From assembly GCF_003334405.1 (NCBI RefSeq), contig NZ_QOWM01000013.1: DNA of 64,000 nt; one strand, written 5' to 3'. Position numbers: made by a program. This DNA comes from Escherichia coli. Lineage in GTDB: Bacteria > Pseudomonadota > Gammaproteobacteria > Enterobacterales > Enterobacteriaceae. Below, one piece after another: positions 18,001 to 21,000 of the stretch (within the stretch, counting starts at the first letter, position 1; every line of letters begins with the position of its first letter).

Positions 18001-21000
18001 GAATGCAGTCACGCCAGTAATTCGCTTTTATAAAGGGATGCCCCCAGGTTGTACTTTCCAGCCACAGTTCGAGGATCGCGGGGAGTTCTGAACGTTGCGC
18101 TTCCCGAATCATGGTTTATTTCCCGGATAGCAACAGCAGCCAACCACATGATCATTCACCAGCCCACATGCCTGCATAAAGGAGTAACAGATTGTGGTGC
18201 CGACAAACTTAAAACCACGTTTTTTCAGTGCCTTAGATAGGGCGTCGGAGGCGGACGTAGATGTGGGAATTTCGCTCAACGTTGTGGCTTGTGTCACCTG
18301 TGGCTGATGATTTACAAACGACCAGACAAAGTCGACAAACGGTTCGCCGTTCTGTTCCATTTGCAGGTACGCCCGCGCATTACCAATAATTGCCTGAATT
18401 TTCCCTCGATGGCGGATAATCCCGGCGTCCTGTACCAGTCTTTCGACATCCTCTTCCTGCATTGCTGCGACCTTCACCGGATCGAACTGATGAAAGCAGG
18501 CGCGATAGTTTTCGCGTTTTTTGAGGACGGTGATCCACGATAATCCAGCCTGCTGCCCTTCAAGGCAGATCATTTCGAACAGTTTTTTACTGTCAGTTTC
18601 AGGCACGCCCCACTCATTATCATGGTAGGCAATATAAAGCGGGTCCTGACTCACCCAGCCGCAACGTTCCATACTTTCCCTCGCTATGTACCCGATCGTA
18701 AAAATTTCAGCCGCTTTTCTTGACGCATCGGTGAAAAAGTCAATATTTAATACAGGGCTACTATGCCCGATATCCTTCATACAATGACAATAATATTGCC
18801 GAATTCGGCTCTTCTCTGGAGTCGTGTTAATGATCATAAAAAAAAGCGGTGGTCGCTGGCAGCTAAGCCTGCTGGCGAGCGTGGTAATCAGTGCCTTTTT
18901 TCTCAACACAGCTTACGCCTGGCAACAAGAATATATCGTTGATACGCAACCCGGACTTTCCACAGAGCGTTACACCTGGGATAGTGATCATCAACCTGAT
19001 TACAACGATATTTTGTCGCAACGTATTCAAAGTAGCCAAAGGGCGCTGGGACTGGAAGTCAATCTGGCGGAAGAAACCCCTGTGGATGTGACCAGCAGTA
19101 TGAGTATGGGCTGGAATTTTCCTTTATATGAACAGGTTACAACCGGCCCGGTCGCGGCATTACATTACGATGGCACAACCACCTCGATGTATAACGAGTT
19201 TGGCGACAGTACTACCACGCTGACCGATCCGTTATGGCATGCCAGCGTGAGTACCTTAGGCTGGCGTGTTGACTCCCGGCTTGGCGATCTCCGACCCTGG
19301 GCGCAAATCAGCTATAACCAGCAATTTGGCGAGAATATCTGGAAGGCGCAATCAGGCCTGAGCCGGATGACGGCGACAAACCAGAACGGCAACTGGCTGG
19401 ATGTCACCGTAGGCGCTGATATGTTGCTCAATCAAAATATTGCCGCCTATGCCGCGCTAACTCAGGCAGAAAATACCACTAATAATAGCGACTATCTGTA
19501 TACGATGGGGGTTAGCGCCAGATTTTAACGTAACAGTCACAATTGAAACCATTAAATAACAATAGTTGTGGCGATAGTGGGTGCTAACTTACCAAATAAT
19601 AAATTTGGTGAATAATTGTCGCGTCATTCATTCCTGAACTAAGGCATTTCATTCCGTTCTGATGGCATTTCATGCCGTTTTTCCCCAGGCATAAAGTGCA
19701 CTTCGTTATGGTTGTCGGCAGAGATTTTTCCTTTTTATTACTGCAGGAATACTGCCATGACACCTTCAAATTATCAGCGTACCCGCTGGCTGACACTCAT
19801 CGGTACTATCATTACCCAGTTTGCGCTGGGGTCGGTTTATACCTGGAGCCTGTTTAATGGCGCGCTTTCCGCCAAGCTGGATGCGCCGGTAAGCCAGGTC
19901 GCTTTCTCTTTCGGCTTGTTAAGTCTGGGGCTGGCAATTTCGTCTTCTGTTGCGGGCAAATTACAGGAACGTTTTGGCGTTAAACGCGTCACCATGGCTT
20001 CCGGCATTTTGCTGGGATTAGGCTTCTTCCTGACAGCGCATTCTGACAACCTGATGATGCTGTGGTTAAGCGCCGGTGTGCTGGTGGGACTGGCAGATGG
20101 CGCGGGTTATCTGCTGACGCTCTCTAACTGTGTGAAGTGGTTCCCGGAGCGTAAAGGTCTGATCTCCGCGTTCGCTATCGGTTCTTATGGTCTGGGTAGC
20201 CTGGGTTTCAAATTTATCGACACGCAGCTGCTGGAAACGGTCGGTCTGGAAAAAACCTTTGTGATTTGGGGAGCGATTGCGCTGTTGATGATTGTTTTCG
20301 GCGCAACGTTAATGAAAGACGCACCAAAACAGGAAGTGAAAACCAGCAATGGTGTGGTGGAGAAAGATTACACGCTGGCAGAGTCGATGCGTAAACCGCA
20401 GTACTGGATGTTAGCGGTAATGTTCCTGACCGCCTGCATGAGCGGCCTGTACGTGATTGGGGTAGCGAAAGATATCGCCCAAAGTCTGGCACACCTTGAT
20501 GTGGTTTCCGCAGCCAATGCAGTCACTGTTATTTCCATCGCCAACCTTTCAGGTCGTCTGGTGCTGGGTATTCTGTCTGACAAAATCGCCCGTATCCGTG
20601 TTATTACCATTGGTCAGGTGATATCGCTGGTGGGTATGGCGGCCCTGCTGTTTGCACCATTGAATGCAGTGACGTTCTTTGCAGCGATTGCCTGCGTGGC
20701 ATTTAACTTTGGCGGCACTATTACCGTCTTTCCGTCACTGGTCAGTGAGTTCTTTGGCCTCAATAACCTGGCGAAAAACTACGGTGTGATTTATCTCGGT
20801 TTCGGTATCGGTAGCATTTGTGGTTCGATTATCGCCTCACTGTTTGGCGGCTTCTATGTGACCTTCTACGTGATTTTCGCCCTGCTGATTCTGTCATTGG
20901 CGCTTTCTACGACGATTCGTCAGCCAGAGCAGAAAATGTTGCGTGAGGCGCATGGCTCCCTTTAATGCTCAGCCGCGAGCTACTGGGCTTCAGCTTCCGT

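What the first reader, a model, noticed from the sequence alone, without database searches (positions are those of the whole stretch)
19643..19673. Perfect 10-bp direct repeat GGCATTTCAT with 21-bp periodicity upstream of yhjX
Two identical decamers spaced exactly two helical turns apart lie about 85-115 bp upstream of the yhjX start. Direct repeats with this spacing are the typical recognition pattern of LytTR-type response regulators, and yhjX is known to be the target of a pyruvate-responsive two-component system of this class. The spacing and perfect identity stand out against the surrounding AT-rich sequence.
Basis: partly seen in the sequence, partly recalled or inferred. Interest (0 to 1): 0.3.

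Follow-up and report, generated by a model that had tools for sequence, protein, structure and literature searches.

The report
Known YpdB binding site before yhjX
The two identical 10-base repeats are real. They are the already published docking sites (A and B) where the pyruvate-responsive regulator YpdB/PyrR switches on the E. coli transporter gene yhjX, so the finding is correct but not new.

Summary
Confirmed and already known. GGCATTTCAT occurs exactly twice in the window, at 19643-19652 and 19664-19673 (+), 21 bp start to start and 114 and 93 bp before the yhjX ATG (19757). The window is E. coli K-12-like.

Window 19620-19677 is identical to the published yhjX promoter fragment that covers the DNase I-protected region for the LytTR response regulator YpdB (renamed PyrR). 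The two decamers are its published sites A and B. In that work, mutating A abolishes binding, and B is filled only after A.

Conservation agrees. The 21-bp spacing is the same, without gaps, in all 80 orthologous promoters from about 35 enterobacterial genera, while the spacers between the sites vary freely.

- The conserved unit is 13 bp. Position 11 is always T in A and always G in B.
- Position 1 is variable. About 30% of complete E. coli genomes have TGCATTTCAT at site A.
- A third in-phase copy (19622-19634) is nearly as conserved as A and B.
- A lineage-variable inverted copy (19688-19700) lies over the presumed -35/spacer region.
- A TANNNT -10 hexamer (19707-19712) is present in all 81 sequences.

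The third and inverted copies are not discussed in the papers I could read and are only modestly interesting. Interest is low.

The parts
19620..19677 (+). Published YpdB-bound fragment of the yhjX promoter. The authors describe it as covering all nucleotides protected in their DNase I footprints.
   Evidence: Exact string match of the SPR oligonucleotide of PMC4847170, minus its 4-nt G/C clamps, to the window.
19643..19655 (+). Site A, GGCATTTCATTCC: the promoter-distal, high-affinity YpdB site.
   Evidence: The site-A mutant oligo replaces window 19643-19652. Published: mutating A abolishes binding. Mean information content is 1.84 bits per column across 35 genera, and positions 2-3 and 6-13 are invariant. 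It is the top PWM score in the window.
19664..19676 (+). It is itself a GGCAT/ATGCC palindrome around TTC.
   Evidence: Published cooperative 'AB-BA' binding. Mean 1.67 bits per column; position 11 is G in 35/35 genera, against T in 35/35 for site A. Second-best PWM score in the window.
19622..19634 (+). Site C, CGTCATTCATTCC: a third copy in phase, 21 bp upstream of A. It shares G2 and TTCATTCC with A in exact register. Its role is unproven.
   Evidence: Gapless conservation in all 81 sequences. GTCATTCATTCC is exact in 51/81, and 8 of 13 positions are invariant across 35 genera. Mean 1.61 bits against 0.2-0.6 in the flank and spacers. In Atlantibacter it is a canonical GGCGTTTCATTCC. It lies inside the published protected fragment. 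PWM rank is 46 of 127,976.
19677..19681 (+). Conserved GTTTT tract directly after site B
   Evidence: Mean 1.67 bits per column across 35 genera.
19688..19700 (-). Element D, an inverted copy of the motif (TGCACTTTATGCC on the - strand). It lies 11 bp after site B, over the presumed -35/spacer region. It is lineage-variable and its role is unproven.
   Evidence: Third-best PWM score in the whole window on both strands, with a PWM trained only on non-Escherichia sites A and B. It is a perfect reverse complement of the site-B core in 9/81 orthologs and within 2 mismatches in 29/81 at a fixed offset of 23-24, against 0.0002 in shuffles. It is absent in Enterobacter, Klebsiella and Lelliottia.
19707..19712 (+). 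Inferred -10 hexamer TATGGT of the yhjX promoter. The inferred transcription start is near 19720.
   Evidence: TANNNT is present in 81/81 orthologous promoters at offset 42-43 from position 1 of site B (alignment). No -35 consensus is found (sequence). The start site is inferred, not measured.
19757..20965 (+). yhjX coding sequence (402-aa MFS transporter), the regulated gene
   Evidence: Identical to the MG1655 yhjX CDS, annotated WP_000189019.1.

Best explanation
The two decamers are sites A (19643) and B (19664) of the operator through which the phosphorylated LytTR-type response regulator YpdB (PyrR) activates yhjX. YpdB is encoded elsewhere in the genome and is controlled by the pyruvate-sensing kinase YpdA/PyrS; in UPEC it is cross-controlled by BtsS.

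Shown by others: YpdB monomers bind A first with high affinity and then B cooperatively. A is indispensable for binding. yhjX is the only reported direct target.

Shown here: the two sites are the cores of 13-bp conserved blocks at an invariant 21-bp (two helical turns) spacing. The same phase continues to a universally conserved TANNNT hexamer 42-43 bp after site B.

Inferred: the regulators therefore sit on one face of the helix. The slot one period after B is the -35 region of an activator-dependent promoter that has no -35 consensus, where YpdB bound at B would recruit RNA polymerase.
For: - Exact repeat and coordinates.
- The locus is E. coli yhjX, and the promoter and CDS are identical to MG1655.
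- Window 19620-19677 equals the published footprint/SPR fragment.
- Published statements on the GGCATTTCAT repeat, sites A and B, loss of binding on mutating A, monomer binding and pyruvate induction.
- The 21-bp spacing is invariant in 80 orthologous promoters.
- Site columns carry 1.6-1.8 bits against 0.4-0.6 bits in the spacers.
- A PWM trained on other genera ranks A and B first and second of 127,976 positions in the window.
- The region is present in 5,421 of 5,426 complete E. coli genomes.
- Motif conservation and cross-species function of the E. coli yhjX reporter are reported in PMC5552118.
- -10 conservation.
Against: Nothing contradicts it. Limits:
- The primary paper (Fried et al. 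2013) could not be read, so the footprint limits and in vivo mutagenesis are known only through later papers.
- The transcription start, and therefore the positions of the sites relative to it, are inferred from conservation.
- The sigma-70 scan found no promoter downstream of the sites. That is expected for an activator-dependent promoter but is not positive evidence.
- No LytTR regulator is encoded within 20 kb, so the regulator was not examined here.
Confidence: 0.95

Rival explanations
1. The operator is larger than the published two-site model. Site C (19622-19634) would be a third, weak YpdB site or a shaping element that helps load A. The inverted element D (19688-19700) would be a further YpdB site over the -35/spacer region that limits or ends transcription, contributing to the pulse-like expression.
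For: - C is conserved almost as strongly as A and B, in exact 21-bp phase, in 81/81 promoters.
- C lies inside the fragment said to match all DNase I-protected nucleotides.
- In Atlantibacter, C is a canonical motif copy.
- D is the third-best PWM match in 64 kb and sits 11 bp from B.
- D is a perfect reverse complement of B in 9 loci from several genera.
- 'Third' does not occur in PMC4847170, and GTCATTCATTCC appears in no other held paper.
Against: - In SPR, the fragment with A mutated but C and B intact bound no YpdB-D53E at up to 50 nM. The fragment with B mutated showed a single binding event. So C is not detectably occupied in vitro, either alone or together with A.
- C scores only 4.4 bits on the A/B PWM, because positions 3-5 differ.
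- D is missing in Enterobacter, Klebsiella and Lelliottia and was outside the tested fragment.
- Fried 2013 may already have covered the flanks; PMC4847170 says flanking nucleotides 'influence expression in vivo'.
Confidence: 0.3
2. The repeats are bound mainly by a different protein, for example the paralogous LytTR regulator BtsR or a non-LytTR factor, and YpdB control is indirect.
For: The two pyruvate systems are interconnected, and in UPEC yhjX induction depends on BtsS.
Against: Purified YpdB and YpdB-D53E bind this exact fragment with nanomolar affinity, and binding is lost when site A is mutated. The UPEC cross-talk is between kinase BtsS and regulator YpdB, so the DNA-binding partner is still YpdB. 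From my own knowledge, the BtsR motif is unrelated.
Confidence: 0.02
3. The repeat is a chance or mutational duplication without function.
For: Short perfect 10-mer repeats at 10-40 bp spacing are not rare in this window: 6 events, with 0.26 expected at 20-23 bp spacing.
Against: The motif and its spacing are conserved across about 35 genera while the spacers are randomised. Published binding and mutagenesis also argue against it.
Confidence: 0.01

Closest known systems
YpdB (PyrR) operator of the E. coli yhjX promoter (Fried, Behr & Jung 2013; Behr, Heermann & Jung 2016, PMC4847170)
   Same: It is the same object. The sequence is identical to the published fragment, with the same motif GGCATTTCAT, the same 11-bp spacer and the same gene.
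   Different: Nothing differs for A and B. My comparison adds the 13-bp extent, the A/B-specific position 11, the variable position 1, the conserved in-phase site C, the inverted element D and the conserved -10. None of these is discussed in the papers I could read.
BtsR (YehT) operator of the btsT/yjiY promoter in E. coli (Kraxenberger et al. 2012; cited)
   Same: It belongs to a paralogous pyruvate-responsive LytS/LytTR system. It has one transporter gene as its target and a direct repeat upstream of the promoter.
   Different: From my own knowledge, not tested here: the motif is different (ACC[G/A]CT[C/T]A) and the spacer is 13 bp.
General LytTR operators (AgrA P2/P3, VirR boxes, PlnC/ComE sites)
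   Same: Two repeats of 9-11 nt separated by 11-13 nt and placed next to the promoter, as summarised in PMC4847170.
   Different: From my own knowledge, arrays of more than two sites are known for AlgR at algD but are not the usual pattern.

Membership tests
YpdB/PyrR operator of PyhjX | Sequence identical to the published YpdB-bound, DNase I-protected fragment | tested here: met
   The 58-nt core of the SPR oligo matches window 19620-19677 exactly.
YpdB/PyrR operator of PyhjX | Lies in the promoter region of yhjX | tested here: met
   The yhjX CDS starts at 19757 and is identical to MG1655 yhjX. The sites lie 114 and 93 bp upstream of it.
YpdB/PyrR operator of PyhjX | Bound by YpdB, with site A required and B cooperative | not testable with these tools
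   Published SPR data only.
YpdB/PyrR operator of PyhjX | Motif conserved in orthologous yhjX promoters | tested here: met
   All 80 of 80 loci carry both sites at 21-bp spacing. Site columns carry 1.7-1.8 bits against 0.4-0.6 in the spacers. PMC5552118 reports the same.
LytTR response-regulator operator architecture | Two repeats of 9-11 nt | tested here: met
   Two 10-nt perfect copies, within 13-nt conserved blocks.
LytTR response-regulator operator architecture | Spacer of 11-13 nt between the repeats | tested here: met
   11 nt lie between the decamers, and the spacing is invariant in 81/81 sequences.
LytTR response-regulator operator architecture | Placed directly upstream of, or abutting, the -35 region of the regulated promoter | tested here: inconclusive
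   A conserved TANNNT lies 42-43 bp after the start of site B, which puts the -35 slot one period after B. The start site was not measured, and the consensus scan found no promoter there.
LytTR response-regulator operator architecture | A cognate LytTR regulator is present in the genome | not tested
   None is encoded within 20 kb of the site in K-12. ypdAB lies elsewhere in the genome according to the literature.

The most novel reading that the evidence does not exclude
PyhjX carries a four-element array on one helical face. Three direct copies (C, A, B) sit at 21-bp spacing, and an inverted copy (D) lies over the -35/spacer region. C and D would be functional YpdB contacts: C helps to load or bend the upstream DNA, and D occludes RNA polymerase at high YpdB~P levels. 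Together they would give the characteristic pulse of yhjX expression. This would extend the published two-site 'AB-BA' model.
Probability: 0.25. Interest if true: 0.3.

Novelty: already known. Interest (0 to 1): 0.1.

Why it matters
The finding itself adds little, because it rediscovers a characterised operator from sequence alone. It does show that the scan picks up real regulatory sites.

The comparative analysis gives a sharper description of a model LytTR operator: 13-bp units, an A/B-discriminating base, strict 21-bp phasing down to the -10, a conserved third copy and a lineage-variable inverted copy. This could guide mutagenesis aimed at explaining how YpdB produces pulsed expression, and it could improve motif-based prediction of YpdB targets in other Enterobacteriaceae.

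Tried and rejected
- Fried et al. 2013, the primary paper, is not held under its DOI or its PMC id. I relied on later papers that quote it.
- The repeat finder with a 6-nt seed did not report the 21-bp pair. It did give an out-of-phase 25-bp pairing of the C and A regions (D2), which merely reflects the shared TCATTCC.
- The sigma-70 consensus scan found only TTACCA-16-AATAAT at 19589-19616, upstream of the operator. I rejected it as the yhjX promoter because that stretch is unconserved (0.2 bits per column) and would place the activator sites downstream of the start.
- I considered CATAAAGT (19690-19697) as an alternative -10. I rejected it because that stretch is not conserved in Enterobacter, Lelliottia or Klebsiella, whereas TANNNT at 19707 is universal.
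- Rfam finds no RNA family in 19300-20100.
- Literature searches for a mapped yhjX transcription start gave nothing usable.
- The first anchoring, on decamers only, mis-registered 8 loci by one period (C+A instead of A+B). This is itself what revealed site C, and re-anchoring on three sites fixed it.

Full report
**Observation.** Reading the window shows GGCATTTCAT at 19643-19652 and again at 19664-19673 on the + strand. A pattern search finds these as the only two exact copies in 64 kb on either strand. The spacing is 21 bp start to start, with an 11-bp spacer. The yhjX start codon is at 19757, so the decamers lie at -114 and -93. The similarity runs on beyond the decamers: GGCATTTCAT-T-CCGTT against GGCATTTCAT-G-CCGTT. 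The upstream flank is AT-rich, at 32% GC against 51% for the window.

**Chance.** The decamer is expected 0.12 times in the window. Short perfect repeats as a class are not rare, however. I counted 6 perfect 10-mer direct repeats at 10-40 bp spacing in the window against 1.8 in dinucleotide shuffles, and 0.26 are expected at 20-23 bp spacing. The repeat alone is therefore weak evidence. Its position in a 228-bp intergenic region and its conservation carry the argument.

**Locus.** The 232-bp intergenic stretch is 100% identical to E. coli K-12 MG1655 and is present in 5,421 of 5,426 complete E. coli genomes. The flanking genes are yhjY upstream and yhjX (an MFS transporter) downstream. The yhjX CDS in the window is identical to that of MG1655. 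No response regulator is annotated within 20 kb, so whatever binds here acts in trans.

**Literature.**
[quoted passage not shown] 2013.
- Their SPR oligonucleotide is said to match all nucleotides protected in the DNase I footprints. Without its clamps it is identical to window 19620-19677, and their site-A mutant replaces exactly 19643-19652.
- They report that YpdB binds as monomers. A is the high-affinity site and B the low-affinity site. Mutating A abolishes binding, and mutating B leaves one binding event.
- YpdA/YpdB, renamed PyrS/PyrR, responds to extracellular pyruvate, and yhjX is its only reported direct target. In UPEC the kinase BtsS signals to YpdB.
- LytTR operators in general are two repeats of 9-11 nt separated by 11-13 nt.
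I could not obtain Fried et al. 2013 itself.

**Conservation in other genera.** A scan of species-representative genomes returned 80 loci with YhjX at 84-99% identity, from about 35 genera of Enterobacteriaceae.
- Every one carries the two sites at exactly 21-bp spacing.
- Using one sequence per genus, site columns carry 1.84 bits (A) and 1.67 bits (B) on average. The 8-bp spacers carry 0.4-0.6 bits and the upstream flank 0.2 bits. Neutral positions are therefore saturated, and the blocks are under selection.
- A weight matrix trained only on non-Escherichia sites ranks A and B first and second among 127,976 positions of the window. The A+B pair scores 45 bits. After the overlapping C+A pair (27 bits), the best unrelated pair scores below zero.
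- PMC5552118 independently reports conserved YpdB motifs, and also that the E. coli yhjX reporter functions in several genera.

- The conserved unit is 13 bp, not 10. Positions 2-3 and 6-13 of site A are invariant.
- Position 11 is T in site A and G in site B in 35 of 35 genera. This fixed difference may underlie their different affinities. That is an inference.
- Position 1 is free (G or T).
- Within E. coli, 3,600 of 5,397 matching genomes have the window's exact 64-bp allele. A further 1,627 have the exact allele with TGCATTTCAT at site A. Perfect identity of the decamers is therefore not a functional requirement.

**Extra elements.**
- *Site C.* A third copy, CGTCATTCATTCC at 19622-19634, lies exactly 21 bp upstream of A. 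It shares G2 and TTCATTCC with A in register. It is present in all 81 sequences and carries 1.61 bits per column. In Atlantibacter it is a canonical motif copy. It lies inside the published protected fragment, yet the papers I could read do not mention it.
- *Element D.* The third-best matrix score in the whole window is an inverted copy at 19688-19700 (- strand), 11 bp after B. It is a perfect reverse complement of the site-B core in 9 loci and within 2 mismatches in 29 of 81 at a fixed offset, against 0.0002 in shuffles. It is absent from Enterobacter, Klebsiella and Lelliottia.
- *-10 hexamer.* TANNNT is present in 81 of 81 promoters at 42-43 bp from the start of site B. This is TATGGT at 19707-19712, two further 21-bp periods downstream. 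It implies a start near 19720 and a -35 slot without consensus one period after B. These promoter positions are inferred.

**Mechanism.**
- Shown by others: YpdB~P binds A, then B cooperatively, and activates yhjX in response to pyruvate.
- Shown here: there is strict two-turn phasing of C, A, B and the -10 element across genera.
- Inferred: the regulators line up on one face of the DNA, and the molecule at B abuts the -35 region of a promoter that depends on it.
- Whether C and D are bound by YpdB is open. The SPR data argue against independent or A-assisted occupancy of C at up to 50 nM, and D was outside the tested fragment.

**Rivals.** A chance repeat is excluded by conservation. A different binding protein is excluded by the published binding of purified YpdB to this fragment. 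The only live alternative is an extension of the two-site model, not a replacement of it.

**Verdict.** Interest is low. The conserved third copy and the inverted copy are small, testable additions.

**Dead ends.** See the 'tried and rejected' field. The main ones were the unavailable primary paper, an uninformative promoter scan, no Rfam hit and no published start site found.

Noticed in passing
window 19622-19634 (+): A third copy of the YpdB motif (CGTCATTCATTCC) lies in phase, 21 bp upstream of site A. It is conserved in all 81 promoters examined (1.61 bits per column) and lies inside the published protected fragment. The papers I could read do not discuss it.
   Followed up: partly
window 19688-19700 (-): An inverted copy of the motif lies 11 bp after site B, over the presumed -35/spacer region. 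It is the third-best PWM hit in the whole window. It is a perfect reverse complement of site B in Kosakonia, Phytobacter, Pseudescherichia, Yokenella and others, and is absent in Enterobacter, Klebsiella and Lelliottia.
   Followed up: partly
window 19653 and 19674 (position 11 of sites A and B): Position 11 is T in site A and G in site B in 35 of 35 genera. This fixed difference makes B, but not A, a GGCAT/ATGCC palindrome. It may relate to the reported high affinity of A and low affinity of B.
   Followed up: partly
window 19643 (and 19622); loci L083, L084: There is a common E. coli allele with TGCATTTCAT at site A, together with C-to-A at the first base of site C. It occurs, for example, in EPEC E2348/69. 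1,627 complete genomes match that allele exactly, against 3,600 for the window's allele.
   Followed up: yes
L082 3136-3925 (E. coli DX6), equivalent to window ~19663-19671: An IS1 element is inserted inside site B, with a 9-bp target duplication (TGGCATTTC). It separates sites C and A from site B and the promoter by about 0.8 kb. This strain probably cannot induce yhjX normally.
   Followed up: partly
window 19707-19712: A TANNNT hexamer (TATGGT) is conserved in 81/81 orthologous promoters at 42-43 bp from the start of site B. It is the likely -10 of PyhjX, implying a start near 19720. No measured start site was found in the held literature.
   Followed up: partly
window ~23143, downstream of a tRNA-Pro gene: The window has one copy of a 168-bp unit that is tandemly duplicated in the MG1655-labelled assembly NZ_CM151407.1 (the region annotated as RtT sRNA). 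Otherwise the 40 kb compared is collinear, with a few scattered differences.
   Followed up: partly
window 27256/27277, 28361/28388, 32823/32856, 54372/54390, 59224/59240: Five other perfect direct repeats of 10-11 nt occur at 16-33 bp spacing. With the yhjX pair that makes 6 events, against 1.8 expected from shuffles. By their coordinates, the first two probably lie in dpp coding sequence. I did not examine them.
   Followed up: no
window 19589-19616 (+): The only sigma-70-like consensus match in the intergenic region (TTACCA-16-AATAAT) lies upstream of the operator in an unconserved AT-rich stretch. It is probably not functional for yhjX.
   Followed up: partly
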